A DNA stretch of 64,000 nucleotides from Opitutales bacterium (GCA_965226885.1 CBDDEL010000010.1:352001-416000), one strand, 5' to 3'; shown: positions 31,907 to 50,675, counted from the first letter of the stretch. The notes: generated by a model from the letters alone, not told the origin. Numbers and translations: made by a program.

Positions 31907-33254
31907 CTACCGTTGTTTCTTCCCGGTCAAATCTTCCTCCCGGACGACATAGGCCCTAATCACAGGCTGAGGTCCGAGACCCCTGGTAGCATTAATAAAG
32001 GGTAGTGTATTAAGTAGGAATGGTGGCTAATTCTTGATTATATTGATGAATGAAAAGTCTCAGACAGGTTTCATGCATACTCTTAAGCTTGGAAAAGGAG
32101 AGGGTTTTGCGTGTGAAACGACCCAGTCGTTGGCGCAGGGTATTGTTCCATCGTTCCACATGGGCCGTTTCACCGGTTTCTTTTCCCACGGATCGGTTAT
32201 GAGGAAAGACTTCATCATAAGTGCTCCAAAAGTCGCTGTAGGTGGCACATCTTTTGTAGGCCCGTGGCAGACGCTCGTAAAGTTCCCGGCAACGATACCA
32301 ATCCCGAGGCCCAATGGCATAGGAGAGGATTTGACGGGTGCGTCGGCAAAGAGCGATCCAAACCCATTGGGCATCGCTCTTGCGCCCCACAAAAGACCAC
32401 AGTTCGTCCAGTTCAATGACATCATGGCGGCGGGCCGCAAGAATCGTGCTTTTGAGCGGTCGCAGCGATTGTCGTTTTTTTTAACCAACTCAAAACGGTG
32501 TTGGGACTCACCCCGAAGGCGCGCTGTAAACCGCGTAGACTGCTGCGTTCCTGATAGACTCGAAGGATCATTTCTTTTTGCTCTTCGGTGTATTTCACTG
32601 TGGGGTTTTCGCGGCTTTGTTTACCACAATCATGGCAGCGGTAGCGCTGTTTATGGTTGGGCGTCTTGCCAAATTTAATGATATTTTCACTTCCACAGTG
32701 CCGACAATTAATAATTTTAGTAACCATGCACTAAGAATAAACTGCCTAACGCTATTTGTACAGCTAAAAATACAAAATAACATTCTTTTTTTATACACTA
32801 CCTAATAAAGTTATCATTAGTGTAGTCCGAAATGACAATCGTCCCGTCGCTCATCTGCGTCCAGTTGCTGTAACCGGAATCGCTCGAATAATCCATGACA
32901 ACCAGGCGATCACGACGAAACTGGTCCGGGTAGCCATCCCTGGCATGCCATCTCCAATCGATCGAATAGTCGTCCGGGTTGTTTACTTTGGCGGAGACCG
33001 ATCTCCAATGCGACACAGTCTTGAGTTTGCTTCCAAACCGAACCAGGCGCGACTCAATACCCAAAACCGACCTCTGTAACTTAAGTTGACCGTCGATATA
33101 AACCTGCATCTCCCCAGCATCGCGAACGATTCTATAACGATGCCACTGTGTTGTATCCATCTCAACACCTTCTTCGGAGGCATGTGGCGCCACTTCGTCC
33201 AACGCAGCGCCGGTAGCATCAACGGAAGAAATCTGTTGAAAACGATGAGGAAGA
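31907..33254 (-). pseudogene. C-terminal fragment of a sialidase/BNR-like protein, split by IS1-B and 5'-truncated by IS1-A
   Basis: WHRYRIVR..MQVYIDG lectin-like strand motif; DSGYSNWTQMSDGTIVISDY continues across the IS as NFINATRGLGPQPVIRAYVVREEDL. Confidence 0.65.
32001..32802 (-). mobile_element. IS1-family element B, copy 1
   Basis: IRs GGTAGTGTAT; 8-bp TSD TAATAAAG; InsA CRHC..CHDC; InsB VERWNNTLRQR. Confidence 0.97.
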
Positions 33255-34862
33255 GGTAGTGTTAACATGACGAATGTTTGATATTGCTGTTGTATTCCCA
33301 GATGGGTAGTGTATAAAAAAAGAATGTTATTTTGTATTTTTAGCTGTACAAATAGCGTTAGGCAGTTTATTTTTAGTGCATGGTTACTAAAATTATTAAT
33401 TGTCGGCACTGTGGAAGTGAAAATATCATTAAATTTGGCAAGACGCCCAACCATAAACAGCGCTACCGCTGCCATGATTGTGGTAAACAAAGCCGCGAAA
33501 ACCCCACAGTGAAATACACCGAAGAGCAAAAAGAAATGATCCTTCGAGTCTATCAGGAACGCAGCAGTCTACGCGGTTTACAGCGCGCCTTCGGGGTGAG
33601 TCCCAACACCGTTTTGAGTTGGTTAAAAAAAACGACAATCGCTGCGACCGCTCAAAAGCACGATTCTTGCGGCCCGCCGCCATGATGTCATTGAACTGGA
33701 CGAACTGTGGTCTTTTGTGGGGCGCAAGAGCGATGCCCAATGGGTTTGGATCGCTCTTTGCCGACGCACCCGTCAAATCCTCTCCTATGCCATTGGGCCT
33801 CGGGATTGGTATCGTTGCCGGGAACTTTACGAGCGTCTGCCACGGGCCTACAAAAGATGTGCCACCTACAGCGACTTTTGGAGCACTTATGATGAAGTCT
33901 TTCCTCATAACCGATCCGTGGGAAAAGAAACCGGTGAAACGGCCCATGTGGAACGATGGAACAATACCCTGCGCCAACGACTGGGTCGTTTCACACGCAA
34001 AACCCTCTCCTTTTCCAAGCTTTTAAGAGTATGCATGAAACCTGTCTGAGACTTTTCATTCATCAATATAATCAAGAATTAGCCACCATTCCTACTTAAT
34101 ACACTGCCCCCAGATGAACAAGCACAGGACGCGAAAATGCATGACCAAAGACTTCGAGAATGACAGCGTTTTACGCACATAGCGTGACAGGGACTGTCGC
34201 AAGGTATTGTTCCAGCGTTCGATATGGGCGGTTTGGCCGGATTGTTTCCCGCTGGCGCTGTTGTGAGGGAAAACCTTGTCGTAGCTTTCCCAGTAATCGC
34301 TTACGGTGGCACAGTCGCGATAGGGCTGGGCGATGTTGTGATACAACTGCCAGCACGTTTGATCGCTACGATCACCCAGAGAAAACCCGACGACCTGTCG
34401 GGTACGTCGACACAAGGCTACCCATAGCCATACCTGCCCCGAACGCTTATCGCCCCAGAATGACCACACCTCGTCCAGTTCCAGCACATCACTACACTGG
34501 CGGGCAAGCAGAGTGGACTCCAGCTTCGGCAAACTCAGGACTTTTTTTTAATCCATTCGATGACCGTCTTTGGGGCTACCCCGAAGGTACGGTAAATGGC
34601 ACGCAGGCTCATCCGGTTTTGGTGCGCACGGAGCACCTGCTTGACCAGCGCCGGAGGATGCTCACGACTTTTGGGGTGAAGCCGAAACTGATAACCACAC
34701 CCCTTGCATCGATACTTCTGAACCCCTTTCGGATCCTTGCCGTGCTTGATGATGTGATCGCTTCCGCATTGAGGACATTTTACTGTGATATGGACCATTC
34801 CCAGTTCACAACATAATCACGCTAAAAAGTACAGCTTAATCATTCAAAATGTTAACACTACC
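33255..34862 (-). mobile_element. IS1-A copy 2, interrupted near its 3' end by IS1-B
   Basis: 33255-33304 plus 34109-34862 match the reverse complement of 6963-7758; outer flanks do not match. Confidence 0.95.
33305..34108 (+). mobile_element. IS1-B copy 2 (2-bp insertion near 34021, one IR substitution)
   Basis: 8-bp TSD CCCAGATG; near identity to 32001-32802. Confidence 0.96.
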
Positions 34863-34968: not shown

Positions 34969-35592
34969 CCCGGATATTTCATGAAGGGTAAAGTTTGGCT
35001 CGTTATTGCTATTGGAGATGGATTTCTTTGTATTTTGAGCAGATCGTCTTGATTTTTAGGTGTTTTTCAGGGTGTAGAGACACTGCCCCCTTTCCCCCAT
35101 TGGTTCGGTAGTGCCGGGGGCAGCACCAATGCACCCTTTAGGTTGGCACCAATCGGCGGGCCGCATGGTTGAAAAGACTGGCCCAAGGATAACTCTCACT
35201 TAGGTGAAAGTGAATCGTTCGGGTGTTGCGCACGATGACCGCTCCGATCTTGATTAATTTGAGCCGCAGGGTGTGGCATTGGGCCCGCGCCCACTTCGTC
35301 CCTTTTAAGGCTAACCGGCGCATGGCTTCCATCAAGGTGTAGGCCAGCGCCGACAAGAGCAATCGCCACTGATTGGCCCACCATTGATGGGCGCTGGTGC
35401 GCTCGCTGAACAATTGCATCTGTTCCTTGATTCGGTTCTCCATTTCACCGCGGCCACAGTATACCTTGTCGTAAAGCTCCTGGGGATCGCCCGGCAGGTT
35501 CGTCACCACGAAGCGCGGGTTGGACCCCTGTGCGGTGTGTTCGGCTTTATGGATGACCAACCGCAGCCATCGCCACGAATCGGCAGCATAGA
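34969..35592 (-). mobile_element. IS1380-A copy 3, 3' fragment truncated by IS21
   Basis: TTAG followed by the IR; last ~150 transposase codons; abuts the IS21 IR. Confidence 0.95.
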
Positions 35593-38111
35593 TGTAAACG
35601 CCGGGATGAAACCGGTACGGGGGTCGGGGTAAAACCGGTACGCTTGGAATAAGGTTTAGGTTAGTAATTGCAGGTACGTCAAGGTTTAGGGTTTGGGAGT
35701 TGGTTTTGGGGATTGGCTTGGGGTCGGTGAGGAGGCCGGAGGCCGACGAGCCGGGCCCAAGGCGTTTATTGTTTTGTGCCACGGCGACGGCGTCGAGCAT
35801 CGCGCAAGCGGTAGCTTTGCCCGTTGGCTTCGAGGATATGCACCCGATGGGTGAGTCGGTCCAGCAGAGCTCCGGTGAGCCGTTCGGAACCGAGCACTTC
35901 GATCCAGTTCTCAAAGGGCAGGTTGGTGGTGACGATGAGACTGGTGCGCTCGTAAGCGCGGCTGACCACGTCGAAGAGCAGTTCGGAACCGGTCTTGGAA
36001 AAAGGGACGTAACCGAGTTCGTCGAGGATGAGTAGGTCGAGCCTTTCGAGTTGCTTCATGAAGCGCTGCAGGTCGTGGTTGTCGCGTTGCTCGAGCATAT
36101 GGGTAACCAGGGCGGTGACCCCGAAGAAACGGATCCGCCGGCCCTGGGCACAGGCGGCAAAGCCCAGGGCGGTGGCCAGGTGCGTTTTACCGGTACCGGC
36201 GTTACCGAGGAGCAGCACGTTTTCGCGCTGGTCGACATACTCCCCGCGCATGAGCTCTCGGATGAGCGCTTCGTTGATCGAGGGCTGCGCTTCAAAGGCG
36301 AAGCTCTCGAGGGTCTTGAGCACGGGGAAACGGGCGTTTTTGATCCGCCGCTGGGCGGCCCGCTGTTCGCGTTCAATGAGCTCCCGTTCGACCAGATGCA
36401 ACAAAAAGGCGGCGTAATCGAGCCGGTCCCGGGAACAAGCCGCGGCCACCGCCGGCCATTCGCGCAGGATGGTGGGCAACTTCAGTTTCTTGAGGTGATG
36501 GTGTAACAGCAGCTGGTTTTTTTCTTCCTTCATAAAGCCCCTCCTGGAATCTTGAGCAGTTCGCTGTAGGCACCGAGGTCAGGGGCGGCCACACGGACGT
36601 GACGCAGGTGTGGATGGCCGTCCCCAGCCGGAAGGTTCTGCTCCCGTAGTCTTCCTGAGGATAGAGATACTGGGCGATGGCCTCACGAGTCAGTCCCCCC
36701 ACCCGCAGGGCCGAGACGACGGCCTGCTGCAAGGCCGCCATGGGGTGTTTCTCCAACAGCCGCAGCACCCGGATATACTCCCGGGTGCCTTCGCCCCCGC
36801 ATTGGCTTTCGAGCCGGCGTCTGAGGACCTGCAGGCACTGCGGCAACTGCCAGCCCGAGAGTGGGCGGGCGAAGTCCAAAGCGCCCGGTTTTTTCTCCAG
36901 CAAAGCCAGGTAGTGCACCGGCTCGAAAGAGACTTGCTCTTTATCCCAAATGCGGCGGTGCCGGGCCACCTCTTGGCCCCCACAGAAGATCATCACCTGC
37001 CGACAGGACCCTTCCACCACCACCGGATGGTGGGCGCAGCGCACCGGCACCGAATAGTCGTTGCACTCGAAGCGCACCAGCGAGAGGCTGCTGACGCAGG
37101 TCGAGCGTTTGCGGCTCGCTTCAAAGGGTATGGGCGGCAACGCCAGCATGACGGCGCGCTCCTCGGCCAGCAGTTCCTTTTTCACCGCCCTTTTCCCGCG
37201 TAATTTACGCTCCATGTCCCGCTCACATGCCTCCAACAGCTTTGCGTTGAGTTCCTCCAGGTCCCGAACCTGCGGTACCGGTACCAGGAAGTTGGCCCGG
37301 GCATAACGCACGATCCCCTCGACCACGCCCTTCTCGTTGGGCCGGGCGGGCAGACAGAAGTGTTCCTCGAACAGGTAATGGCTCTGTAGCTGCAGAAACC
37401 CGTCGGTCAGCTTGCGTTCACGCGAACCGATAATCTTACCCACCGCCACCTTCGAGTTGTCATAGCTGATGCGCCGGGGCACCGCCCCGAAAAACTCAAA
37501 AGCTCGCAGGTGCCCCTCCCAGAAGCTCTCCGTGCACTCCCGTTCGAACACCTGCACGAAAAAGGCATCGCTGTAGGGCAGGCTCATGGCAAAAAATGGC
37601 CGCCTACGCAATTGCCCCGCCTCCTTCACCAGGGCATGACCGAAGTCCACCTGTCCCTCCCCGGGGCGGTGCTCCAGCGGCACGAACACTTCCCGCCGCC
37701 TCGCTCGCAGCTCGGCCACCACCTCCTTGACCGCCGTGTAGCCCCCTTGGTAGCCCTTCTCCCGACCCAAACGCTGGTAGATCCGTTTGGCCGTATGGCG
37801 CTGCTTCTTGGGCACGTTCCGGTCCGCTTTGAGCACCTCCTCGATCCAGCCCACATACGGATCGATCTTGCGCTCTCGCCTCTTCTTGCGCCGGTATCCC
37901 GGCGGCTGGGAATAGGCCAGCATCTTTCCCAGGGTCTCCCAGTGCAGTCCCTCTTCTCGCATTACAGAGCGCTTGCTCTGCTTGTCCCGCAGCACTTTGT
38001 GCCGCACTCTTGTCCATTGCTTCATATCTCGATACACTCCTCCTTTCTAGGATAAGCGTACCGGTTTTAAAGCGCCCTCTTTACCGTACCGGTTTTTCCC
38101 CGGCGTTTACA
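35593..38111 (-). mobile_element. IS21 copy 3 (istA 36373-38037 with the +2 frameshift, istB 35766-36533)
   Basis: Near-identical to copy 1; no TSD. Confidence 0.97.
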
Positions 38112-38151: not shown

Positions 38152-39117
38152 ATGACATTGACACCACTTCAACCGGAGCGACCCACGGCATACCGCTTTT
38201 GCAACTGGGATCGCGATTTCGAGAACTCAAGCAGCCGCAAGGTCGATAATGCACAGTGGGTGCGAGCGTCCAACAACCACGAAAACCGCCAATATCTGAC
38301 GATAGCCCGTCAGGAGAACGCAGTTGAGCTCATTGGTGCCAAGGAGTTATTGGCTCAGGCGGGATCGAAAATGCAGGAACGCGGACTTTTCGTGGATCAA
38401 TCGGGGCCGTTAATCGCAGAGGACATCGCTCAAATGGTAAGAATGCCAACTGAACCGATAGAGAGAGCCTTGGAATTTTTCTCAAATCCGTCCGTTGGAT
38501 TGATCGAGAAAATCCCCTGTCCAAAGCAACTGAATCTTTCTGGTCGGCAGGGCGATGGAGTAAACACGCTTCCTGTTAATTTGCCAGGTGAAACACGCCC
38601 CGATGGGATAGTATCCCACCCAGCCGGGATAGCATCCCGCGCAGGTGGGCCAGAAAGGAAAAGAAAGAGTGCACCGGCTGGCACCGGCTCAGACTCACAA
38701 AGTTCTTCAAAATATAAAAAAACTTCAGCTTCTAATCAAAAGCCATTCCAAAAGCCCACCCAGCAGGAGTGGTTGGCTTATATGGCTTCGATCCTGGTAC
38801 CCTCTCAAGCGGCTGAGAAGGCGTTCCACCACTACGAGGCTGTGGGCTGGACGGTGGGCCGCAATAACCGCCCCATGATGGATTGGAAGGCGGCGGCGCA
38901 GACTATCAAATGCAATCACATCAAAGAGGGTGGGACGCTTCTGGGCGATGGCCCTACCCATAAGGAGCCGGATGGCTGGCGGGAGTGGTATGTGAAGACA
39001 TACCCGCCAGACAAGTACCCCGTACAACCTCGCTACGAAACCAGAACATGGGCGGATTTGCCGGATTTTATGCGGGATGAGTTTTTTGCAAAGCAGAAAA
39101 AGGAGGATGCAGCGTGA
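38152..39117 (+). CDS. Phage-type replication initiator / replisome organiser-like protein
   Basis: C-terminal PT..E...Y...AFHHYEAVGWTVG...MMDWKAA motif typical of phage replication proteins; GTGA overlap with dnaB; AGGAGG RBS. Confidence 0.7.
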   Translation: MTLTPLQPERPTAYRFCNWDRDFENSSSRKVDNAQWVRASNNHENRQYLTIARQENAVELIGAKELLAQAGSKMQERGLFVDQSGPLIAEDIAQMVRMPTEPIERALEFFSNPSVGLIEKIPCPKQLNLSGRQGDGVNTLPVNLPGETRPDGIVSHPAGIASRAGGPERKRKSAPAGTGSDSQSSSKYKKTSASNQKPFQKPTQQEWLAYMASILVPSQAAEKAFHHYEAVGWTVGRNNRPMMDWKAAAQTIKCNHIKEGGTLLGDGPTHKEPDGWREWYVKTYPPDKYPVQPRYETRTWADLPDFMRDEFFAKQKKEDAA

Positions 39118-40460
39118 TGGCCGGAATAGATGGGACGGTTGTGCCGTCCAACGTTGACGCAGAGGCGGGCTTGCTTGGATGCTGCCTGCTTGAGGAGGGG
39201 GAGGAGGTGCTCGCTAAATGCATGGTGGCGCGGCTAACTCCCGATGATTTTTTCAAACCGGGCCACCAGATGATTTTCAAGGCTCTTTGCAGCCTCCACC
39301 AAAAAAACGTCCCGCCAGATGAAATTACCCTCGCTGATGAATTGCAGAGAATGGGGCAATTAGAGGAAGCCGGGGGATACCCTGAGATGGCCAATCTTAC
39401 CAGCCAAATCGATACTACGGCCCATTCCAAACACTGGCTGGACATTGTGAAGGAAAAGGCCACCAGGCGCAGCATCATCAAGGCAGGCACCATACTTGTT
39501 GAAAATGCCAGGCAAAACCATGAGGATATTCAATCCGTCCTGGACAGCGCCGAAAAAACCATATTCGCCCTTTCGAGGGATCAGGTTTCAAACTCGGCCC
39601 GGCACGTATCCAGCGTTGTCGATGACTTCAAGCAATCGCTGGCGCAGGAGGCGAATGTGCTTCATGGGCTCCACACTGGCTTCCTTGATCTGGATACAAA
39701 GACTTCCGGCCTCCACGCCGGGGAAATGAACGTCCTGGCCGCCCGGACATCAATCGGCAAAACAGCATTGGCTCTAAATATCGCCGCGAATGTGGTATTG
39801 CCCAAATCAGGAGGAAACGGTCAAGGGGTTTTGATATTCTCACTGGAAATGTCCAGCGAGCAACTCATCCAGCGAATGGTTTGCAGCCGTGCATCAATCA
39901 ACCTGGCAAAGTTGCGTCAAGGGTATCTCAAACAAGAGGATCGGGAGAAACTGGATTATACAGCCGATGAAATCCATGCCGCGCCCCTTTGGATTGATGA
40001 TACGGCGTCGATGAACATTCTGGAACTGAGGGCTAAGGCTAGGCGCATGGTCGCCCAGCATAGCGAGATCAGCCTAATTATTCTCGACTACTTACAGTTG
40101 GTAAGCGGAACGGATCGACGTGTTTCCCGCGAGCAGCAGGTATCAGAAATCTCCGGCGGACTCAAGGCTTTGGCCAAGGAATTGAAGATGCCGGTTCTTG
40201 TTCTCAGCCAATTGAACCGATCCTTAGAAACAAACAGCCGCCAACCGCGCCTGTCTGATCTCCGAGAGTCCGGGGCCATCGAGCAGGATGCCGACGTTGT
40301 GCTGCTCATGTCGAAACCCGCCAATCAAGGAGAGGCATACGCGGCTGTAGAAACGGTTGATCTGAACATTGCCAAACAGCGAAATGGGCCTGTGGGCCAT
40401 GTGCGCCTGGCATTTCAACCGCAATTCACCCGGTTCGAGAATTTCCAATCAGAGGGATAG
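39114..40460 (+). CDS. dnaB: Replicative DNA helicase DnaB (mobile-element copy)
   Basis: AARTSIGKT, FSLEMS, DYLQL, LSQLNR, SDLRESGAIEQDAD, IAKQRNGP. Confidence 0.97.
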   Translation: MMAGIDGTVVPSNVDAEAGLLGCCLLEEGEEVLAKCMVARLTPDDFFKPGHQMIFKALCSLHQKNVPPDEITLADELQRMGQLEEAGGYPEMANLTSQIDTTAHSKHWLDIVKEKATRRSIIKAGTILVENARQNHEDIQSVLDSAEKTIFALSRDQVSNSARHVSSVVDDFKQSLAQEANVLHGLHTGFLDLDTKTSGLHAGEMNVLAARTSIGKTALALNIAANVVLPKSGGNGQGVLIFSLEMSSEQLIQRMVCSRASINLAKLRQGYLKQEDREKLDYTADEIHAAPLWIDDTASMNILELRAKARRMVAQHSEISLIILDYLQLVSGTDRRVSREQQVSEISGGLKALAKELKMPVLVLSQLNRSLETNSRQPRLSDLRESGAIEQDADVVLLMSKPANQGEAYAAVETVDLNIAKQRNGPVGHVRLAFQPQFTRFENFQSEG

Positions 40461-40471
40461 CATTGATAATT

Positions 40472-40819
40472 ATGCATGAATTAGAAAAAACGACGCAAGC
40501 CGGTGGGATCGTTCCACTGCCAAAAGTGATCCGTAAACAGGGGTTTACCCTGACTCAGACATGGCGGAAGGGGACCGTAGCTATTTTTGAACAGATGAAA
40601 CCCGGATGGGCCAAGCCGGGATATGAGGTAATTATCATTCGGGTAGGGAAAGGCCATTATTTGGGCGACCAAAAGGATACCCTAATGGAGCGGTACCCTA
40701 CCAACAATGAATGGGGCAAGTATGGCTGGACCCATCCCAATGAAGAAAGTGCCAAAATTGCGGCCAACAATGCTTATCGGGAAGAATTGCTAAATCGGGA
40801 GGGCAAGAGTGCTGCGTAA
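40472..40819 (+). CDS. Hypothetical phage-type protein
   Basis: Directly follows dnaB; YEV...ERYP..NEWG..GWT motif; function unknown. Confidence 0.7.
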   Translation: MHELEKTTQAGGIVPLPKVIRKQGFTLTQTWRKGTVAIFEQMKPGWAKPGYEVIIIRVGKGHYLGDQKDTLMERYPTNNEWGKYGWTHPNEESAKIAANNAYREELLNREGKSAA

Positions 40820-40993
40820 AGGTATCAGGAAGGTCTTACTGTACGTCCGAAAACGGGAGGTTGGGGGTAAATAGGTATCAGAGTGCCACTTTTTCAGAAA
40901 TTCGATGTTTTCAGCATGAATTTCACATTCATACCTGTGGACATGGATTCAGAATTAGAACCAGTACGTTTTCTTCAAATTACATACAATATT

Positions 40994-41056
40994 GGGGGCG
41001 AAGGATTTCGATGGCGCAGCAGTGACCGGATGGCGGTTCGATTCCGCCCGCCTCCA
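40994..41056 (+). ncRNA. Mini tmRNA-like RNA: tRNA-like domain only, no mRNA-like domain
   Basis: GGGGGCG/CGCCTCC-A acceptor stem with G3:U70; AAGGATTTCGA tmRNA-type D-loop; short capped helix; GAT linker; GGCGG-TTCGATT-CCGCC T-arm. Confidence 0.8.
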
Positions 41057-41075
41057 GCAAATCAAAGGAAAAAAC

Positions 41076-41279
41076 ATGAGCAAATGGAAAAAAGTCAAGG
41101 AACGCCTGGAAGACCTTCTCGACGCACCTGATGCAAAGATAACGAAGGGCAAAGCGGCCAAAAGGCTGGGGATGTCCCACCGTGCCCTCCATTTCTACCT
41201 GTGGAATGGAACATCGACTCCAAACTACGACCTTGGATGCGAATTTCTGAGGCTGGCCAAATCGCTTGAGGACAAATAA
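41076..41279 (+). CDS. Small Cro/XRE-like helix-turn-helix protein (67 aa)
   Basis: ITKGKAAKRLGMSHRALHFYLWNGTSTP; AAAGGA RBS. Confidence 0.7.
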   Translation: MSKWKKVKERLEDLLDAPDAKITKGKAAKRLGMSHRALHFYLWNGTSTPNYDLGCEFLRLAKSLEDK

Positions 41280-41488
41280 TATAAACAACTGGACCAACTG
41301 GTGGACCAAGGCCCAGCCCAATAGAAAGGAGGGAAACCATGACTGATATTATCACAATATCCCTTTTGATGTACCGGGAAGGAAGGAACCGAATCCATCC
41401 TAAACCACATGTTGAATCTAATTTATTATGTAAAATTTTACAAATAACAATTCAAACAATTTAAGGGAGATAAAACTATATGAATAAT

Positions 41489-42818
41489 CACTAGTGTCCA
41501 GTTAAGCGGCCAGTCTAAAGTCGTATTTCGTTGATGATGTGTTTGTTGAGTAGCCACATGGATGTGACGCATTTGAAGTTAGCTGGCGCTTTCCGCACCC
41601 TTTTTGAGACTGGGCAGCATGAACGAAGGCCGCCTTGCATTCACGCAGGCGATGGATTTGCTCCATCGCGAACAGTTCGAACGCTGCGTTAGTCTTTATC
41701 CCATGCCAAGAACCAGTCGTAGTTTCAGTGCCCGTGATCAGTTCTTGAGCATGGCCTTTGCGCAAATGACATTCCGTGAGAGTTTGCGTGACATCGAGGC
41801 GTGTCTGCGGGGAAGTCCTCACTTGTATGCGATGGGAATCCGGGGCAATGTGACACGCACGAACTTGGCCTACGCCAACGAGCATCGCAACTGGCGCCTT
41901 TACGAAGCATTGGCTCAAGTGCTCATCGCCAAGGCGCGCCGTTTGTATGCCCAAGACGCGATTGGATTGAATGTAGACGAGATGGTTTATGCCCTGGATG
42001 CCTCGACCATAGACCTGTGCCTGTCGTTGTTTTCGTGGGCAACATTTCGCCGCACCAAGGCGGCCATCAAACTGCATACGATGATGGACTTGCGTGGCTC
42101 CATCCCTATATTCATCAGTATTACAGACGCAAGCGTGCATGACGTGAACATCCTTGATGAACTGGCTTTTGAACCCGCAAGCATTTACGTAATGGATCGT
42201 GGTTACGTCGATTTTCAGCGGCTCTTTCGCATCCATTTGGCTGCTGCCTTCTTCGTCACCCGCGCCAAAAGCAATATGAGTTTTACGTTAGTGCTTCCCA
42301 ACCCGTGGACCGATCCAGCGGAATCAGTTGCGACCAGATCATCGGATTGAAAGTCGCCAAAAGCAAAAGCCAATACCCCGGCAAGCTCCGGCGCATTCGC
42401 TACCGCGATGGCGCAACTGGCCAGAGGCTGGTCTTCCTCACCAACAACTTCACCTTGCCCGCCTTGACTATCGCGGCCATTTACAAAAGCCGCTGGCGCA
42501 TTGAGCTGTTCTGCTGGCGCATTGAGCTGTTCTTTAAGTGGATCAAGCAAAACCTCCGCATCAAGGCTTTCTACGGCACCACCGAAAACGCCGTGAAGAC
42601 CCAAATTTGGGTAGCCATATGCGTTTATCTCATGGTCGCCTGTTTGAAAAAAGTGCATGGAGTCACTGAAAGTCTGAGTCGGATTCTGCAAGTTTTGAGT
42701 GTGAACGTCTTTCAAAAAGATCCTGTATATCAACTACTTGCAAAGTTCGAAACAAGAAAGCCAAACTTAGCATTACACAACCAGTTGATGCTCAAGGGCT
42801 TTTAACTGGACACTAGTG
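41489..42818 (+). mobile_element. IS4-family element; transposase 41619-42805 frameshifted near 42283 and with a 21-bp duplication
   Basis: IRs CACTAGTGTCCAGTTAA; 9-bp TSD ATGAATAAT; LDASTIDL, MDRGY, YKSRWRIELFFKWIKQ (YREK). Confidence 0.95.
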
Positions 42819-42939
42819 ATGAATAATATTTGATGTGATTTTAGATATCATTGGTATACAATGGGTTGAGAATTATCGCAAATTATTTAATATTCCGATT
42901 TATACCGATTTAAATGCCCTTCGATCGCGAGTACCCTAG

Positions 42940-45900
42940 CCCGGATATTTCGTAAAAAAAGTATCGTTGATATGCTTAACTGCTGATATACAGCAGGATA
43001 GATCAATAATTAAAGCAATATCAGCGATGACAAAAGGTAAACAATTAAAGCTACAGTTGACAAGGGTAAAAGGCCGCCGTGTGCGGGTTGATTTCAAGGG
43101 CGGAGAGGTTACTTCGGATGCCGGACTGCTTTTGATCCGGGAAGTGGATCGGCAGTTGGGCTTGACCGAACGAGCGGCCCGACAGTTAGTGGACAAACGG
43201 CAGAAGGGCAAAGTACGCCATGAGGTATTGGGGATGCTGCGGCAGCGCGTTTACGGGCTGGTGGCGGGCTATGAGGATTTGAACGACTTTGATACCCTGC
43301 GCCACGATCCATTGTTGCAAACGGTAACGGGGCGCATTGAAACGTTGGCCAGCGCGCCGACTTTGTGTCGTTTTGAAAACGGGCAGGATCGGCGGGCGGC
43401 CTTTGCGGTAAACGAGCTGTTGGTCGAACAGTTCATGGGCTCCTTTGCCGAGGAACCCGAAGAGATCATCCTGGACTTTGACGCCACCGACAATCCGGTG
43501 CACGGGCTCCAGGAGGGACGTTTTTTCCACGGTTATTATGATCATTACTGTTTTCTGCCGCTATATGTTTTTTGCGGTGATCAGCTGCTGGTGGCCTACC
43601 TGCGGCCGAGCAAGATCGATGCCAGCAAGCATGCCGGGGCCATCCTCAAATTGCTGGTTAAACGGATTCGCCAAAGCTGGCCCCGTACGCGGATTATTTG
43701 GCGCGCCGACAGTGGATTTTGTCGAGACCGGATACCCTCTTGGTGCGACCGCAACGAAGTTAGTTAGAGGCTGTCCCAAAAGGGTGATTTTTGCGAGGGC
43801 TTTTGATAGGCGCTCATTTTAGAGGTATTTGCATTTGGGAGAGTATCAACTTTGCTCTCCTATGACGTTAGGATACTGGTTTTGGGGTCCGGTTGCCTGG
43901 TTTTCTTTGTATGAGCCGACAGTACGGCTGTGAAAAAGTATTGTCCTTGCTTTTCCGCTCTCTAGGCCGCCGCTTTGGTTTTTAGTTCGTCTTGCTGGGC
44001 CAGCATCTTGGCTACTTTCCATAGGTTGTGCGAGAGTACCGACCAGGCTACGCTGATCGAGCGGTTGGCAAAGCCTTTGCTGCGCAACCGCCCGGCCTGC
44101 CAGCGATTCTTCAATACCCCGATCCGCCCTTCGGTGCTGGCCCGGCGCTTTTGCAATTGTCTGAACAGTGGTTCCTCCATCCGTTTTTTCAACTGCTTCG
44201 GATCGCGTGGACAGAGCGCGTCGTAGATTCCCTCCTGGGCTAACTGCCGGCGGGCCCGCTGGGAGGCAAATCCCCGGTCCGCGCACATGGCCGCTATGGG
44301 TTCTTCCAGGTTGAAGCGGTTCTGTCTTTGCAAACTCTCTTGCATTTGTTCATTTTCGCTTGGAGTTCGGCTGCCGTAGAGTTTCCAGTCCAGCAGGTAC
44401 CCTTCAACGCTTTCTCCCAAAAACAGGGTGTTGCCGAACTCGACCTCTTGGCCCGCTTTACCTCGCACAATCACCTGCCCATCGAGTTCGTAAACACTCA
44501 AGACTTTCTCTGCGTTTTTCACCTGGCGGCCGCCAATGATCCGCTCGTGCGCCTGTTTGATGACCACCGGGATTTGCTCGCTCATGCGCTCCATCCGGGC
44601 GAGGATCTGTTGGACCTGTTTTTCGCTGTAATCGCTTTGCTCCCAGCAGGCTTGCAATAATTCCCGGTGACTGCGGGCATGCTCCCCGATCCGTTTGAGC
44701 AGCTTTTTCATCTGCCTCAAGATACCCTTGCGCTGCCGCGCGCTGTCCTTTCGCCGCCGGCTGTGAGTCCTGTGAGTCATCTGTATGCACAGCCGATTCA
44801 TCTGCCGAGCCAAGGGCTCCGGTTCGATCGGCATGCGATGGCGCAAACCGGCCTTCTCGCGGATCAGCCGGATCGCTTTGAGCAACGTGCCGGCTACATC
44901 CTTGAGTAATACCCAGTCCGTCGGCCAATGAATGTTAGCCTCCAAACAGGTGCCGTCGATCAGGCAAATGGTGGTGTCAATCGGCTTGTCCAATCCCACC
45001 TGCCGGGCCAGAAGGGCATCGCCCACCACCTCAGTCAAGGTCCGGTGCAAGGCCCTCAACTGCTCTTCGCTGAAAAACTTCGAGGCCCGCTCCAGGGTGC
45101 TTTTGGAGATGCCCCTGATGCCATCGATCTGCCGGACACGGCAAAAGTCGGCCAACAGATCGCTGCTGCCCAGAGCCCGCGACAAATGCCGAAACGAAAT
45201 CCCTCCGAGCAGACGGCCCAGCGTATCCATGCGCAGTGCCTTGATGGCAAAACTGGCCCGCTGCCGCCGGGCCTTTAGACCCATTGGCGGCCACCCCTCC
45301 AAGGCCAGCTCAATGGCCTGCGATTCCACCTCCGAGTCGATCAGCAGCCGATCGATTCGATCAATGGTGGCGCGGAAGTTATCGTAATCGAGGCACCGGT
45401 CGACCACAGTTAAAGCTGGACGCAGGAGGCATTGGATGGCTATATTTTTCATAGAAAGGGCTATATTGATTTTCGCTAACTCAATTATAGAACCCTTTTT
45501 TGGCCGGATCGAGCAAAAACTTGCTCTTTCCGGCTCTTTTTATCAACGTCATCCAGTTGACTATAAAATCTTTATATTTTTGGGACAGCCTCTAGTTACA
45601 TCGTGGGGATGGCTCGCAATGCACGCTTGCAGCAAGACGCCCAGCAGTTGCAAAAGCAGGCCAAAGAATGGTTCGAACTAAGGGGTAAAAAACAACGGTT
45701 ATTCCAGGACTTCGTCTATGCTGCCGATTCGTGGCGATGGCTGCGGTTGGTCATCCATAAAGCCGAACACACCGCACAGGGGTCCAACCCGCGCTTCGTG
45801 GTGACGAACCTGCCGGGCGATCCCCAGGAGCTTTACGACAAGGTATACTGTGGCCGCGGTGAAATGGAGAACCGAATCAAGGAACAGATGCAATTGTTCA

Positions 45901-46338
45901 GCGAGCGCACCAGCGCCCATCAATGGTGGGCCAATCAGTGGCGATTGCTCTTGTCGGCGCTGGCCTACACCTTGATGGAAGCCATGCGCCGGTTAGCCTT
46001 AAAAGGGACGAAGTGGGCGCGGGCCCAATGCCACACCCTGCGGCTCAAATTAATCAAGATCGGAGCGGTCATCGTGCGCAACACCCGAACGATTCACTTT
46101 CACCTAAGTGAGAGTTATCCTTGGGCCAGTCTTTTCAACCATGCGGCCCGCCGATTGGTGCCAACCTAAAGGGTGCATTGGTGCTGCCCCCGGCACTACC
46201 GAACCAATGGGGGAAAGGGGGCAGTGTCTCTACACCCTGAAAAACACCTAAAAATCAAGACGATCTGCTCAAAATACAAAGAAATCCATCTCCAATAGCA
46301 ATAACGAGCCAAACTTTACCCTTCATGAAATATCCGGG
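42940..46338 (+). mobile_element. IS1380-A copy 4, transposase split by IS5-like copy 2
   Basis: IRs present; CTAG on both sides; transposase halves 42967-43766 and 45593-46169. Confidence 0.96.
43767..45592 (-). mobile_element. IS5-like element, copy 2 (transposase 43962-45452)
   Basis: IRs GAGGCTGTCCCAAAA; TSD TAGTTA. Confidence 0.95.
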
Positions 46339-47960
46339 CTAGGCCGCCGCTTTGGTTTTTAGTTCGTCTTGCTGGGCCAGCATCTTGGCTACTTTCCATA
46401 GGTTGTGCGAGAGTACCGACCAGGCTACGCTGATCGAGCGGTTGGCAAAGCCTTTGCTGCGCAACCGCCCGGCCTGCCAGCGATTCTTCAATACCCCGAT
46501 CCGCCCTTCGGTGCTGGCCCGGCGCTTTTGCAATTGTCTGAACAGTGGTTCCTCCATCCGTTTTTTCAACTGCTTCGGATCGCGTGGACAGAGCGCGTCG
46601 TAGATTCCCTCCTGGGCTAACTGCCGGCGGGCCCGCTGGGAGGCAAATCCCCGGTCCGCGCACATGGCCGCTATGGGTTCTTCCAGGTTGAAGCGGTTCT
46701 GTCTTTGCAAACTCTCTTGCATTTGTTCATTTTCGCTTGGAGTTCGGCTGCCGTAGAGTTTCCAGTCCAGCAGGTACCCTTCAACGCTTTCTCCCAAAAA
46801 CAGGGTGTTGCCGAACTCGACCTCTTGGCCCGCTTTACCTCGCACAATCACCTGCCCATCGAGTTCGTAAACACTCAAGACTTTCTCTGCGTTTTTCACC
46901 TGGCGGCCGCCAATGATCCGCTCGTGCGCCTGTTTGATGACCACCGGGATTTGCTCGCTCATGCGCTCCATCCGGGCGAGGATCTGTTGGACCTGTTTTT
47001 CGCTGTAATCGCTTTGCTCCCAGCAGGCTTGCAATAATTCCCGGTGACTGCGGGCATGCTCCCCGATCCGTTTGAGCAGCTTTTTCATCTGCCTCAAGAT
47101 ACCCTTGCGCTGCCGCGCGCTGTCCTTTCGCCGCCGGCTGTGGGTCATCTGTATGCACAGCCGATTCATCTGCCGAGCCAAGGGCTCCGGTTCGATCGGC
47201 ATGCGATGCCGCAAACCGGCCTTCTCGCGGATCAGCCGGATCGCTTTGAGCAACGTGCCGGCTACATCCTTGAGTAATACCCAGTCCGTCGGCCAATGAA
47301 TGTTAGCCTCCAAACAGGTGCCGTCGATCAGGCAAATGGTGGTGTCAATCGGCTTGTCCAATCCCACCTGCCGGGCCAGAAGGGCATCGCCCACCACCTC
47401 AGTCAAGGTCCGGTGCAAGGCCCTCAACTGCTCTTCGCTGAAAAACTTCGAGGCCCCCTCCAGGGTGCTTTTGGAGATGCCCCTGATGCCATCGATCTGC
47501 CGGACACGGCAAAAGTCGGCCAACAGATCGCTGCTGCCCAGAGCCCGCGACAAATGCCGAAACGAAATCCCTCCGAGCAGACGGCCCAGCGTATCCATGC
47601 GCAGTGCCTTGATGGCAAAACTGGCCCGCTGCCGCCGGGCCTTTAGACCCATTGGCGGCCACCCCTCCAAGGCCAGCTCAATGGCCTGCGATTCCACCTC
47701 CGAGTCGATCAGCAGCCGATCGATTCGATCAATGGTGGCGCGGAAGTTATCGTAATCGAGGCACCGGTCGACCACAGTTAAAGCTGGACGCAGGAGGCAT
47801 TGGATGGCTATATTTTTCATAGAAAGGGCTATATTGATTTTCGCTAACTCAATTATAGAACCCTTTTTTGGCCGGATCGAGCAAAAACTTGCTCTTTCCG
47901 GCTCTTTTTATCAACGTCATCCAGTTGACTATAAAATCTTTATATTTTTGGGACAGCCTC
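46339..47960 (-). mobile_element. IS5-like element, copy 3 (transposase 46339-47820; right end deleted by IS1380)
   Basis: One IR ending at 47960; the other end is replaced by IS1380-A at the CTAG overlapping the stop codon. Confidence 0.93.
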
Positions 47961-48179
47961 TACCACAGCCTCTACCCTATGTTAAAAATAATCCCTCTTC
48001 CAAAATCCACAAAAATCCCCTCGAATGCACCACTAAAACCTGATTTTTGGGCATTTTCAGCAGGTGATTGGCACAAAGCTATAATAAAGGAGTATTCTTT
48101 CTAATTCTCATCGGTTTAGAAAGCCAATAACCCATTTCATGTTTCATGCATAACGACAAGGTTCAGCAGAGAGCTTTTA

Positions 48180-48659
48180 TCACTTACGAGCAGAACGAAT
48201 CAATTCCGCCACTTCTTTCATTCCATTTTTTTCAAGGTATTTGATAAATACAGCCCATGGAGGGATATTGCTACAATATGATGAAGACCCAGTGTATAAG
48301 CCACCCCCAGGGCCAGTATAAAGACCACCTCCGGGACCGGTGTATAAGCCACCACCGGGACCAGTGTATAAGCCACCTCCGGGACCGGTATAAAGACCAC
48401 CTCCAGGACCGGTGTATGCGCCACCACCAGGACCAGTGTAAAGACCACCTCCGGGACCGGTGTATAAGCCACCTCCAGGACCGGTGTATGCGCCACCACC
48501 AGGACCAGTGTAAAGACCACCTCCGGGACCGGTGTATAAGCCACCTCCAGGGCCGGTGTATTGATCTCGTGGCCAAGTATTTTCAGGGCACGCTGCAAAA
48601 GCAGACGACATAAAAGTTAAACAGAACCAAATTGCGCTTATAAGTTTTAGTCTTTCCAT
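48180..48659 (-). CDS. Secreted glycine-rich repeat protein, (L/A)YTGPGGG x11
   Basis: Signal peptide ending SAFA; 24-bp repeats with synonymous variation; start inferred. Confidence 0.85.
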   Translation of the reverse strand: MERLKLISAIWFCLTFMSSAFAACPENTWPRDQYTGPGGGLYTGPGGGLYTGPGGGAYTGPGGGLYTGPGGGLYTGPGGGAYTGPGGGLYTGPGGGLYTGPGGGLYTGPGGGLYTGPGGGLYTGSSSYCSNIPPWAVFIKYLEKNGMKEVAELIRSARK

Positions 48660-48995
48660 AGACATAAAATACATAAAATTCCTATTTCCGGGTCCGAGCC
48701 TTGCCAGACGTCCGAGCCTTGCCAGACCTTTGCTCACCGCAAGGGTCGATGCCGTGTAGGCTTCGATCTTTTCCTTTAAATCAATGATTTTCTTAACTTT
48801 TGGCTTTCCCATCATTCTTCCTCCTTCGGTCGATTATATTGCAGGCAGCGTTTACGCTGCCCGTGATTGGGTACCATAAAATTTGGGCCGAATTTTGCAA
48901 GTAAATCTGCCGATGGGGCCAATTCAGTGGTTCATTACCCCTTTTCGTTCATTCTCATTCTGGGTATTCACCCCTTCCGCCCTTTCTGGACAAGA

Positions 48996-49873: not shown

Positions 49874-50675
49874 GGTAGTGTATTAAGTAGGAATGGTGGC
49901 TAATTCTTGATTATATTGATGAATGAAAAGTCTCAGACAGGTTTCATGCATACTCTTAAGCTTGGAAAAGGAGAGGGTTTTGCGTGTGAAACGACCCAGT
50001 CGTTGGCGCAGGGTATTGTTCCATCGTTCCACATGGGCCGTTTCACCGGTTTCTTTTCCCACGGATCGGTTATGAGGAAAGACTTCATCATAAGTGCTCC
50101 AAAAGTCGCTGTAGGTGGCACATCTTTTGTAGGCCCGTGGCAGACGCTCGTAAAGTTCCCGGCAACGATACCAATCCCGAGGCCCAATGGCATAGGAGAG
50201 GATTTGACGGGTGCGTCGGCAAAGAGCGATCCAAACCCATTGGGCATCGCTCTTGCGCCCCACAAAAGACCACAGTTCGTCCAGTTCAATGACATCATGG
50301 CGGCGGGCCGCAAGAATCGTGCTTTTGAGCGGTCGCAGCGATTGTCGTTTTTTTTAACCAACTCAAAACGGTGTTGGGACTCACCCCGAAGGCGCGCTGT
50401 AAACCGCGTAGACTGCTGCGTTCCTGATAGACTCGAAGGATCATTTCTTTTTGCTCTTCGGTGTATTTCACTGTGGGGTTTTCGCGGCTTTGTTTACCAC
50501 AATCATGGCAGCGGTAGCGCTGTTTATGGTTGGGCGTCTTGCCAAATTTAATGATATTTTCACTTCCACAGTGCCGACAATTAATAATTTTAGTAACCAT
50601 GCACTAAGAATAAACTGCCTAACGCTATTTGTACAGCTAAAAATACAAAATAACATTCTTTTTTTATACACTACC
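49874..50675 (-). mobile_element. IS1-B copy 3
   Basis: IRs GGTAGTGTAT; 8-bp TSD AATAATAA. Confidence 0.97.

What the first reader, a model, noticed from the sequence alone, without database searches (positions are those of the whole stretch)
40994..41059. Stand-alone mini-tmRNA (tRNA-like domain without message) inside a phage-type replication module
Seen: GGGGGCG-AAGGATTTCGA-TGGCGC-AGCA-GTGACCG-GAT-GGCGG-TTCGATT-CCGCC-CGCCTCC-A-GCA. The 5' and 3' heptamers form an acceptor stem with G3:U70 and discriminator A, and the T-arm is perfect. The D region is a stemless loop resembling tmRNA GGATTCGA. Where tmRNA has roughly 300 nt of pseudoknots and tag ORF there is only a ~6-bp helix with a 4-nt loop. 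CCA is not encoded (GCA). A TACAAT hexamer ends 4 nt before it and an HTH gene starts 20 nt after it. Established: G3:U70 is the AlaRS identity element, and SmpB binds the tmRNA D-loop/linker elbow. Inference: a mobile-element RNA that could be alanylated and bind SmpB, acting as a trans-translation decoy, a tag-less ribosome-rescue RNA, a decoy for tRNA-cleaving defence nucleases, or an RNase P/Z processing signal for the downstream HTH mRNA. Message-less tmRNAs are known in some mitochondria; prior reports in phages should be checked before claiming novelty.
Basis: partly seen in the sequence, partly recalled or inferred. Interest (0 to 1): 0.88.

Follow-up and report, generated by a model that had tools for sequence, protein, structure and literature searches.

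The report
Tag-less mini-tmRNA on a mobile element
A 63-base RNA gene that keeps only the alanine-accepting, tRNA-like head of the bacterial ribosome-rescue RNA (tmRNA) sits in a decayed mobile element of a marine bacterium; this kind of RNA is already published for one mycobacteriophage and is common in phages, so it is a solid new member, not a new kind.

Summary
Window 40994-41056 (+) is a tRNA-like-domain-only (TLD-only) tmRNA. It has a 7-bp acceptor stem with G3:U70, discriminator A, a tmRNA-type D-loop, a short P2 hairpin in place of about 320 nt of message and pseudoknots, and a perfect T-arm.

- **Family membership.** Rfam's tmRNA model matches both termini. A covariance model built only from six viral relatives scores it 52.9 bits. 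The same model finds the published DS6A RNA at 35 bits and gives true tRNA-Ala 25 bits or less.
- **Not a scar of the host gene.** The host's full ssrA is intact elsewhere and differs by compensatory changes.
- **Copies and relatives.** A second copy lies on another contig. Capped scans gave 199 distinct pattern matches in viral and metagenome contigs, 174 of them with a fully paired acceptor stem and strong covariation.
- **Precedent.** Mycobacteriophage DS6A carries a "TLD only" tmRNA (PMC4131195, PMC11915505). This scan had already noted phage mini-tmRNAs 25 times on other DNA.
- **Likely function.** I think it most likely competes with host tmRNA for SmpB, and perhaps for AlaRS and EF-Tu. 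This is inferred, not shown.

No expression data were available. Verdict: real, and a new member of a known kind.

The parts
40994..41056 (+). Predicted mature TLD-only tmRNA, 63 nt up to the discriminator
   Evidence: Rfam RF00023 local hit. Model R1 scores 52.9 bits over model positions 1-63. The family pattern is unique in the window.
40994..41000 (+). Acceptor stem, 5' strand (G1-G7, with G3 of the G3:U70 pair)
   Evidence: Pairs 7 of 7 with 41049-41055.
41001..41011 (+). Stemless D-loop region with the tmRNA motif GGAUUUCGA
   Evidence: Aligned to the conserved GGaUUCGA of RF00023 and to R1.
41012..41028 (+). P2 hairpin of 3 + 3 bp with a bulged A and an AGCA loop, standing where tmRNA has its message and pseudoknots
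   Evidence: The only difference in the second copy (U19 to C) turns U.G into C-G.
41029..41031 (+). GAU linker, equivalent to the conserved GAC before the T-arm
   Evidence: Aligned to the model's GAC. GGAU occurs in 13 of 175 family members and GGAC in 109 of 175.
41032..41048 (+). T-arm: a 5-bp stem with a UUCGAUU loop
41049..41056 (+). Acceptor stem 3' strand (U70 at 41053) plus discriminator A (41056)
41057..41059 (+). GCA trailer; CCA is not encoded
   Evidence: The trailer is the same in the second copy. All 50 of 50 host tRNA and tmRNA genes end in CCA.
41076..41279 (+). 67-aa ORF (p67), a possible small HTH protein, on the same strand and preceded by AAAGGA
   Evidence: Three copies in the genome at 100, 79 and 75% identity. 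No relative beyond itself in the protein search. Only sub-threshold HTH hits.
40463..40819 (+). 118-aa ORF (p118) of unknown function, upstream cassette partner
   Evidence: No Pfam or PHROG hit. Partial copies flank the other two cassettes.
39114..40460 (+). DnaB-type replicative helicase of the element
   Evidence: Pfam DnaB_C E 3.8e-92 and phrog_19 E 7e-101. It is 53% identical to a second DnaB on C17, presumably the host's own.
38152..39117 (+). 321-aa putative replication initiator or organiser
   Evidence: Sub-threshold Phage_rep_org_N hit, E 0.005. phrog_15768 E 6e-11, unknown function.
35138..38111 (-). IS21-type insertion (IstA and IstB) bounding the island on the left
   Evidence: Pfam IstB_IS21 and Mu-transpos_C_2. 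The same IS is repeated at over 99% identity elsewhere.
41487..47962 (.). Pile of DDE-transposase insertion sequences bounding the island on the right
   Evidence: Pfam DDE_Tnp_1 and DDE_Tnp_1_4. Multi-copy repeats start at 41487.

Best explanation
This is a genuine gene for a TLD-only (message-less) tmRNA of the DS6A type. It is carried by a small replicating mobile element that is now riddled with insertion sequences.

Likely working, step by step:
1. The RNA is transcribed on the + strand together with the replication genes and the downstream 67-aa ORF (inferred).
2. RNase P cuts it out at G1, and a 3' endonuclease or exonuclease trims it to the discriminator (inferred).
3. The host nucleotidyltransferase adds CCA (inferred).
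4. The acceptor stem (G1:C72, G2:C71, G3:U70, G4:C69, A73) makes it an AlaRS substrate. The D-loop, T-loop elbow and base of P2 make it an SmpB ligand, by analogy with tmRNA (established knowledge of tmRNA, not tested here).
5. Having no resume codon or tag frame, it cannot tag proteins. It therefore competes with host tmRNA for SmpB, and perhaps for AlaRS, EF-Tu and stalled ribosomes, and so damps the host's rescue-and-tag pathway for the benefit of the element.

I put membership in the TLD-only tmRNA family at about 0.9. The stated confidence refers to the competitor/inhibitor mechanism.
For: Anatomy:
- Both tmRNA termini match RF00023, with the centre reduced to 17 nt.
- The second copy scores 49.3 bits, above Rfam's cut-off of 47.

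Independent model:
- R1 was built from six viral 63-nt sequences, not from this locus.
- It scores 52.9 and 56.1 bits on the two copies and 35.0 bits on DS6A record positions 28479-28557.
- True tRNA-Ala scores only 25 and 20.8 bits.

Family is real and structured:
- There are 199 distinct pattern matches, and 174 of them pair all 7 acceptor positions although only 3 pairs were imposed.
- T-stem pairs 1-3, which were not imposed, are standard in 174 of 174 sequences, with five pair types each.
- On 101 aligned sequences 99.7% of cells pair, against 68.5% in shuffles and 44-57% when the partners are slid. Thirteen of 18 pairs change on both sides, in 544 cells against 147 in shuffles.

Not derived from host ssrA: the host gene is intact at C15:318749-319106, and its ends differ by compensatory changes.

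Partners present in the host:
- SmpB.
- A PolyA_pol/CCA-type nucleotidyltransferase.
- Four tRNA-Ala genes with the same identity set.

Published precedent, from passages read:
[quoted passage not shown] Context recurs:
- DS6A's copy lies beside a DNA polymerase III gene.
- Viral locus L137 has DnaB abutting the RNA.
Against: - No expression evidence. No RNA run is listed for the locus, and the scan finds no promoter or terminator near it.
- P2 is at the weak end of the family. It has 3 consecutive outer pairs, as in only 8 of 175 sequences, while the mode is 7.
- CCA is not encoded in a host whose 50 of 50 tRNA and tmRNA genes encode it. An RNase Z could not be identified with confidence: the best match reaches 82 + 43 bits against a cut-off of 293.
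- The element is decayed, with IS insertions on both sides and a third cassette that has lost the RNA, so the gene may no longer be used.
- Conservation between the two copies is not specific to the RNA. The RNA differs at 1 of 63 positions, but the 19-nt linker differs at 0 of 19, the p118 3' end at 6 of 206 and the upstream spacer at 12 of 174. Only p67 (43 of 204) and the far flank are clearly more diverged.
- Folding energy of the single sequence is ordinary.
- The inhibition experiment (Mao et al. 2009) was not readable here. It used E. coli and a "similar molecule".
- None of the 150 ORFs flanking viral relatives matched SmpB, a release factor or a peptidyl-tRNA hydrolase, so there is no genomic hint of a dedicated partner.
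Confidence: 0.5

Rival explanations
1. It is a tag-less rescue RNA. The charged RNA enters stalled ribosomes with SmpB, accepts the nascent chain and frees ribosomes without marking the protein for degradation. It would add rescue capacity, or spare the element's truncated proteins, rather than block rescue.
For: The anatomy is the same as for the best explanation: full alanine identity and a TLD. CDS-less tmRNAs of jakobid mitochondria and some plastids are thought still to help with incomplete mRNAs (PMC11915505 passage). In the family, 75 of 174 members encode CCA, which points to charging.
Against: Without a resume codon the ribosome would hold peptidyl-Ala-TLD with no template, and no release partner is encoded nearby. 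The only experimental report I could see cited describes inhibition, also for a non-chargeable form. This copy lacks CCA.
Confidence: 0.17
2. It is a relic with no present function. The RNA gene was useful to an active phage or satellite, but the element is dead and the gene persists only because too little time has passed.
For: The island is cut by IS21 on the left and an IS pile on the right. The C14 cassette is truncated by IS21. The C17 cassette lost the RNA to two IS copies. Conservation between the copies is no stronger in the RNA than in its immediate surroundings.
Against: All 18 pairs of the model are intact in both copies, and the single substitution improves a pair. The flanking ORFs (321, 448, 118 and 67 aa) are all open.
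Confidence: 0.15
3. It is a processing punctuation mark. The tRNA-like fold serves mainly as an RNase P / 3'-end cleavage site that separates the replication mRNA from the p67 mRNA and sets p67's 5' end 20 nt before its start codon.
For: It lies on the same strand, with no terminator or promoter detected between p118 and p67. The RNA ends 19 nt before the p67 ATG, and the 19-nt linker is identical in both copies.
Against: In viral relatives the RNA lies in many unrelated contexts: between prohead protease and capsid genes, beside lysins, methylases and recombinases. The third p67 copy has no such RNA. Strict retention of the tmRNA D-loop and alanine identity is not needed for RNase P.
Confidence: 0.08
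4. It is a decoy or sponge for something other than SmpB, for example a defence or toxin enzyme that recognises tRNA acceptor/T-arm halves, or an alanyl donor for a non-ribosomal transferase.
For: It is a stable acceptor/T-arm mimic carried by mobile elements. Phage proteins that handle tRNA and tmRNA fragments exist (AcrIIIA1, PMC11662646 passages).
Against: It has no anticodon arm, which is the usual target of tRNA nucleases. What is conserved in the family is the tmRNA-specific D-loop and the GAC linker. No candidate partner gene is linked.
Confidence: 0.08
5. It is an attachment-site relic or a recent internal deletion of the host ssrA gene.
For: Integrases often target the 3' end of ssrA (PMC10865867 and PMC11915505 passages).
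Against: Both the 5' and 3' halves are present. The host ssrA is intact elsewhere. Eight of the last 32 positions differ, including compensatory pairs. Relatives occur in unrelated phages.
Confidence: 0.02

Closest known systems
"TLD only" (CDS-less) tmRNA of Mycobacterium phage DS6A (tmRNA Website tmID 11587; Hudson, Lau and Williams 2014, PMC4131195; NAR Genom Bioinform 2025, PMC11915505)
   Same: Both have acceptor stem, tmRNA D-loop, P2 closed by a hairpin and T-arm, with no tag frame. Both are carried by a mobile genetic element and lie beside replication genes. The same covariance model R1 detects both.
   Different: DS6A's RNA is about 79 nt with a longer P2; this one is 63 nt with a 3 + 3 bp P2. 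The host here is reported as an Opitutales bacterium rather than Mycobacterium (scan note; not verified). This copy sits in a decayed chromosomal island in two copies, not in a free phage genome. CCA is not encoded here.
Standard one-piece tmRNA (Rfam RF00023), including the host's own ssrA at C15:318749-319106
   Same: The TLD is shared: G3:U70, discriminator A, GGAUUCGA-type D-loop, GA...GA(C/U) junction and T-arm.
   Different: It lacks the roughly 320 nt holding the resume codon, tag ORF and pseudoknots. It scores 32-41 bits against the cut-off of 47 and the host gene's 137 bits.
Message-less tmRNAs of jakobid mitochondria and about 65-bp CDS-less plastid tmRNAs (cited in PMC11915505)
   Same: The RNA is reduced to a TLD without a coding region and is of similar size.
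   Different: Those are the organelle's only tmRNA and work with an imported SmpB. This one is an extra, element-borne copy beside a complete host tmRNA.
tRNA-Ala
   Same: The acceptor-stem identity set and the T-arm are shared. Host tRNA-Ala genes match RF00023 at about 31 bits.
   Different: There is no D-stem and no anticodon arm. ARAGORN does not call it, and R1 gives tRNA-Ala 25 bits or less against 52.9 here.

Membership tests
TLD-only (CDS-less) tmRNA, DS6A type | A complete tmRNA tRNA-like domain: 7-bp acceptor with G3:U70 and A73, stemless GGAUUCGA-type D-loop, GA...GAN junction and T-arm | tested here: met
   All 18 modelled pairs form.
TLD-only (CDS-less) tmRNA, DS6A type | P2 closed by a short hairpin, with no resume codon, tag ORF or pseudoknots | tested here: met
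   Only 17 nt lie between the two conserved GA dinucleotides. P2 is 3 + 3 bp with a bulge.
TLD-only (CDS-less) tmRNA, DS6A type | One profile of sequence and structure detects both this RNA and the published DS6A RNA | tested here: met
   R1 scores 52.9 bits here and 35.0 bits at DS6A 28479-28557. tRNA-Ala scores 25 bits or less.
TLD-only (CDS-less) tmRNA, DS6A type | Carried by a phage or other mobile element in addition to a complete host tmRNA | tested here: met
   The element has DnaB and initiator-like genes, lies among IS copies and is present as three cassette remnants. The host ssrA is intact. Whether the element is a phage was not established, because no structural genes were found.
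TLD-only (CDS-less) tmRNA, DS6A type | Binds SmpB and/or inhibits trans-translation | not testable with these tools
   Known only from passages citing Mao et al. 2009. That paper is not held.
Standard tmRNA (RF00023) | An mRNA-like domain with resume codon and tag reading frame | tested here: not met
   324 model positions are replaced by 17 nt. ARAGORN finds no tmRNA or tag peptide.
Standard tmRNA (RF00023) | Score at or above Rfam's gathering threshold of 47 bits | tested here: not met
   This copy scores 32.4 and 40.9 bits and was not listed at the gathering threshold. The C14 copy reaches 49.3 bits.
tRNA (RF00005) / tRNA-Ala | A cloverleaf with D-stem and anticodon arm | tested here: not met
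   There is no ARAGORN call and no tRNA hit at the gathering threshold. In the Rfam clan competition, tmRNA was the best match kept.
ssrA attachment-site relic | Only the 3' part of the gene is present, identical to the host ssrA 3' end | tested here: not met
   Both halves are present, and 8 of the last 32 positions differ from host ssrA.

The most novel reading that the evidence does not exclude
Mini-tmRNAs may be a large, unannotated class of mobile-element RNAs that reprogram host ribosome rescue, reaching beyond lytic phages into chromosomal islands and satellites.

This CCA-less copy, with a GCA trailer conserved in both copies, sits in a host whose 50 of 50 tRNA and tmRNA genes encode CCA. 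It may act as an uncharged or poorly reactive SmpB sponge, a pure inhibitor rather than a rescuer, expressed from the replication operon whenever the element replicates.
Probability: 0.2. Interest if true: 0.7.

Novelty: new member of a known kind. Interest (0 to 1): 0.4.

Why it matters
Trans-translation is the main ribosome-rescue and protein-tagging pathway of bacteria. A small element-borne RNA that mimics only the SmpB- and AlaRS-binding head of tmRNA would be a compact natural inhibitor, or a bypass, of that pathway.

In the papers I could search, only one phage example (DS6A) is in print. Here the form turns up much more widely:
- 199 distinct pattern matches from two capped scans, 174 of them with a fully paired acceptor stem.
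- 7 of 151 genomes sampled from the host's phylum, counting this one.
- This decayed chromosomal island.

Gene finders miss it. ARAGORN called 2 of 108. Some copies exceed Rfam's tmRNA threshold and could be mis-annotated as a second ssrA.

This locus adds three things:
- a chromosomal, replication-module context outside a phage tRNA array;
- a very compact form at the short end of the family's 59-82 nt range;
- a CCA-less variant in a host whose own genes all encode CCA.

It does not add a new principle.

Tried and rejected
- **Expression.** The look-up of sequencing runs listed no RNA holder.
- **Close DNA relatives.** blastn of 40860-41290 found nothing in the phage or plasmid collections.
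- **First pattern.** A narrow pattern requiring GGATTTCGA found nothing in viral contigs.
- **Genome-collection scan.** The genome-contig scan used a pattern requiring GGAT. Most of its 36 hits were false: the reverse complement of a tRNA T-loop next to another tRNA or tmRNA 3' end. I judged only L038, L042 and L046 true, so that scan undercounts genomes.
- **Neighbour proteins as handles.** p67 was found in none of the 400 other genomes sampled from the phylum and has no relative in the 5.8-billion-protein search. p67 and p118 gave no useful viral loci.
- **Relatives of the host.** In 40 relatives the Rfam tmRNA search showed no other match of 63-66 nt. The two best sub-threshold 76-nt rows proved to be tRNA-Ala. 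The remaining rows at 35 bits or less were not inspected one by one.
- **Selective constraint from the two copies.** The RNA against all flanks gives Fisher p 0.006. The contrast comes from the diverged p67 and far flank, and the immediate surroundings are as conserved as the RNA. I do not count this as evidence of selection.
- **Dedicated promoter.** The scan does not support one, and no terminator was found.
- **Element type.** Pfam and PHROGs gave no integrase, capsid or terminase in the window's non-IS ORFs, so phage, satellite and plasmid-like origins remain open.
- **MAFFT alignment.** Alignments of mixed-length members (A1, A2) misplaced the 5' spacer and P2. I replaced them with a gapless 63-nt seed and a model-based alignment.
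- **Literature.** Mao et al. 2009 is not held, and I saw no supplements of any paper.

Full report
**Observation.**
- The first and last heptamers pair 7 of 7, with G3:U70 and discriminator A at 41056.
- The T-arm is a perfect 5-bp stem with a UUCGAUU loop.
- Between acceptor and T-arm lie a stemless GGAUUUCGA loop, a 17-nt hairpin and GAU.
- The hairpin is weaker than "6 bp" suggests. It has three pairs, a bulged A, then three more pairs, and two of the six are G.U.
- CCA is not encoded; the trailer is GCA.
- TACAAT ends four positions before G1, but the promoter scan finds no -35 partner and no terminator anywhere in 40400-41500.

**Is it more than chance?**
- At Rfam's gathering thresholds only the tRNA-Lys at 25842 is reported in the window. 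ARAGORN sees only that tRNA.
- With permissive settings the tmRNA model RF00023 aligns its positions 1-374 to this stretch, with 324 central positions replaced by 17 nt. The score is 32.4 bits, E 1.1e-11, and 40.9 bits in the genome-wide search.
- Host tRNA-Ala genes score about 31 bits with the same model, so this alone is not decisive.
- I therefore built a covariance model, R1, from six gapless 63-nt viral sequences that do not include this locus.
- R1 scores the window copy 52.9 bits (E 3.8e-10 over 80 kb) across all 63 positions and the second copy 56.1 bits. It hits nothing else in the window.
- R1 gives true tRNA-Ala genes 25 and 20.8 bits.
- The descriptive pattern occurs once in the window and in 0 of 100 shuffles.
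- The folding energy of the single sequence is ordinary, z -0.55. The case rests on comparison, not on thermodynamics.

**Relation to the host gene.**
- The genome (17 contigs; the window is C10:352001-416000) has one full-length ssrA at C15:318749-319106, scoring 137 bits, with a tag frame. It also has smpB at C15:95496-95918.
- The mini RNA is not a copy of the host gene's ends. Of the last 32 positions 8 differ, and these include two swapped T-stem pairs and one swapped acceptor pair. The D-loop spacer also differs in length.
It is neither a deletion scar nor an att relic of host ssrA.

**The family.**
- A pattern fixing only G1-G4, UUCGA, the T-loop core and UCCA found more than 120 stretches in viral contigs and 117 in metagenome contigs.
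- The loci held 237 matches and 199 distinct sequences. Of these, 174 pair all seven acceptor positions, 8 pair six and 17 pair fewer, although the pattern imposed only three pairs.
- Lengths run from 59 to 82 nt, with clusters at 62-65 and 77-80. Of the 174, 75 are followed by CCA.
- T-stem pairs 1-3, which were not imposed, are standard in 174 of 174 sequences, with five pair types each. The P2 helix has a modal run of 7 outer pairs, against 2-3 in shuffled controls.
- I then searched 100 sources with R1: the window, L002, L038, L042, L046 and 95 of the 174 loci drawn at random. This gave 101 matches, aligned as A4.
- On A4, 99.7% of cells pair, against 68.5% in shuffles and 44-57% with slid partners. 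Thirteen of 18 pairs change on both sides, in 544 cells against 147 +/- 11 in shuffles.
- Caveats: A4 is fitted to the model. Five pairs were fixed by the search pattern. The loci had been filtered for acceptor pairing, so the unforced evidence is P2 and T-stem pairs 1-3.
- Only 27 of 108 loci with at least 1.5 kb of flank hold another tRNA gene. ARAGORN of the 108 minis.
- I scanned 150 of 156 flanking ORFs against Pfam, and the contexts are diverse. They include the gap between prohead protease and major capsid genes (L078, L100, L127, L134), DnaB abutting the RNA (L137), ERF and YqaJ recombinases, DNA methylases and lysins. None matched SmpB, a release factor or a peptidyl-tRNA hydrolase at E <= 1e-5.

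**What is in print.**
- I read passages of two papers. Hudson, Lau and Williams 2014 (PMC4131195) list "Mycobacterium phage DS6A (TLD only)". They say that a similar molecule, chargeable or not, strongly inhibits tmRNA, perhaps by titrating SmpB, and cite Mao et al. 2009.
- The 2025 tmRNA database paper (PMC11915505) repeats this. It adds CDS-less plastid forms of about 65 bp and the jakobid mitochondrial forms.
- Mao et al. 2009 is not held.
- Full-text searches gave nothing further: "mini-tmRNA" returned 0 papers; "tmRNA-like" with "phage" returned 1, which I did not open (a review of frameshifting, by its title); "TLD only" returned only Hudson 2014; and "DS6A" with "tmRNA" returned 10, none describing further examples.
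- So within the held library I found no description of the wide phage family.
- In the DS6A record, R1 finds the RNA at 28479-28557 (35 bits). It lies unannotated between gp33 and the DNA polymerase III gene gp34.
- This scan had already noted phage mini-tmRNAs in 25 findings on other DNA. My scans preceded that look-up and agree with it.

**The element.**
- All neighbours lie on the + strand. They are a 321-aa protein with a sub-threshold replisome-organiser hit, a clear DnaB (E 4e-92), a 118-aa ORF with no matches, the RNA, and a 67-aa ORF starting 20 nt after the discriminator.
- The 67-aa ORF has only sub-threshold HTH hits and no relative in the protein search.
- The island is bounded by an IS21 on the left and a pile of DDE-transposase IS copies from 41487 onward. 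Much of the surrounding "unknown" DNA is itself multi-copy repeat.
- The genome holds three remnants of the cassette p118-RNA-p67:
  - the window copy;
  - C14, where IS21 cuts p118 at residue 51 and the RNA differs by one base;
  - C17, where two IS copies replace the equivalent of 40565-41056, so the RNA is gone, and a Toprim + DUF3631 primase-like gene lies upstream.
- No integrase, capsid or terminase was found, so "phage-type" is unproven. A satellite or plasmid-like integrative element fits as well.
- Earlier scan notes call the host an uncultured, transposon-laden marine Opitutales bacterium. I confirmed the transposon load but not the taxon.

**Conservation between the two copies.**
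- The RNA differs at 1 of 63 positions (U19 to C, which turns U.G into C-G at the base of P2).
- The 19-nt linker differs at 0 of 19, the p118 3' end at 6 of 206, the upstream spacer at 12 of 174, p67 at 43 of 204 and the far flank at 25 of 167.
- The RNA lies inside a generally conserved block, so this comparison does not show selection on the RNA itself.

**Maturation.**
- All 50 tRNA and tmRNA genes that ARAGORN finds in the host end in CCA, whereas both mini copies have GCA.
- The host has a PolyA_pol-family nucleotidyltransferase with a 466-aa frame, so CCA addition is plausible.
- An RNase Z could not be assigned. The best candidate matches in two pieces, 82 and 43 bits, against a cut-off of 293.
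- From memory, not from a call: some phage T4 tRNAs lack encoded CCA and rely on host RNase BN and the CCA enzyme in E. coli. That would be a precedent for this mismatch.

**Mechanism.**
- Shown here: the fold, the identity elements, family covariation, kinship to DS6A, and the presence of host ssrA, smpB and a CCA-type enzyme.
- Inferred: transcription with the operon, RNase P and 3' processing, CCA addition, alanylation, SmpB binding, and competition with host tmRNA.
- I rate membership in the TLD-only tmRNA family at about 0.9.
- I rate the competitor/inhibitor role at about 0.5. The alternatives are tag-less rescue (0.17), a relic in a dead element (0.15), a processing signal for p67 (0.08), another decoy role (0.08) and an att or deletion relic of host ssrA (0.02).

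**Distribution in the phylum.**
- R1 over 151 genomes of the host's phylum hit 7, including this one.
- The six others carry 73-78-nt minis with an unusual AUCGNUN T-loop. All nine copies examined have G3:U70 and A73, although nothing forced this, and 8 of 9 are followed by CCA.
- Three of them sit just downstream of a roughly 420-aa protein matching phrog_37888, and in two of those a VWA-domain protein follows the RNA.

**Verdict.**
It belongs to a kind that is already published once and that this scan has seen many times. What is particular to this locus is the chromosomal, replication-module setting in a decayed island, the very compact P2, and the missing CCA in a host that encodes CCA everywhere else.

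Noticed in passing
G000 C17:222577-226981 (L315 about 1480; equivalent to window 40565-41056): In the third cassette two multi-copy IS elements replace the stretch that holds the RNA. The right IS end abuts within 1 nt of what would be the RNA's 3' end (discriminator A / GCA). This may be coincidence or a preferred insertion point.
   Followed up: partly
L332-L341 (G086, G112, G118, G133, G154, G166): Six other genomes of the phylum carry 73-78-nt mini-tmRNAs with an unusual T-loop (AUCGUUA-like). G133 has three within 6 kb of one contig. Six of these copies score above Rfam's tmRNA cut-off. G086 showed no full-length tmRNA at E <= 1e-12 in a 96%-complete assembly.
   Followed up: partly
L334:169-1452, L336:177-1451, L332:1630-2883: A conserved protein of about 420 aa matching phrog_37888 (unknown function) lies immediately upstream of the mini-tmRNA in three of those genomes. 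In two of them a VWA-domain protein lies downstream.
   Followed up: partly
L078, L100, L127, L134 (also L101): In one group of viral contigs the mini-tmRNA sits in the gap between the prohead serine protease and major capsid genes, that is, in a late structural operon.
   Followed up: no
L330 1480-1558 (Mycobacterium phage DS6A record 28479-28557): The published TLD-only tmRNA of DS6A is not annotated in the GenBank record. It lies between gp33 and gp34 (DNA polymerase III).
   Followed up: yes
window 32000-32802, 33305-34108, 49874-50675: An element of about 802 bp is present in the window in both orientations and in very many near-identical copies (about 99% or more) across most of the genome's contigs. 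ORFs I first took for element genes lie inside it.
   Followed up: partly
window 48289-48561: Self-matches offset by 72 and 144 bp (92% and 82% identity) indicate a short tandem repeat inside the 211-aa minus-strand ORF 48180-48815.
   Followed up: no
window 40792-40881: An imperfect direct repeat spans the p118 stop codon and the spacer upstream of the RNA. AAAYCGGGAGG and AGGTATCAG each occur twice, 53-58 nt apart. It could be an operator or an iteron.
   Followed up: no
L265 2502-2579 (-): A second, weaker R1 match (28.4 bits) lies about 420 nt from the main mini-tmRNA on the same metagenome contig.
   Followed up: no
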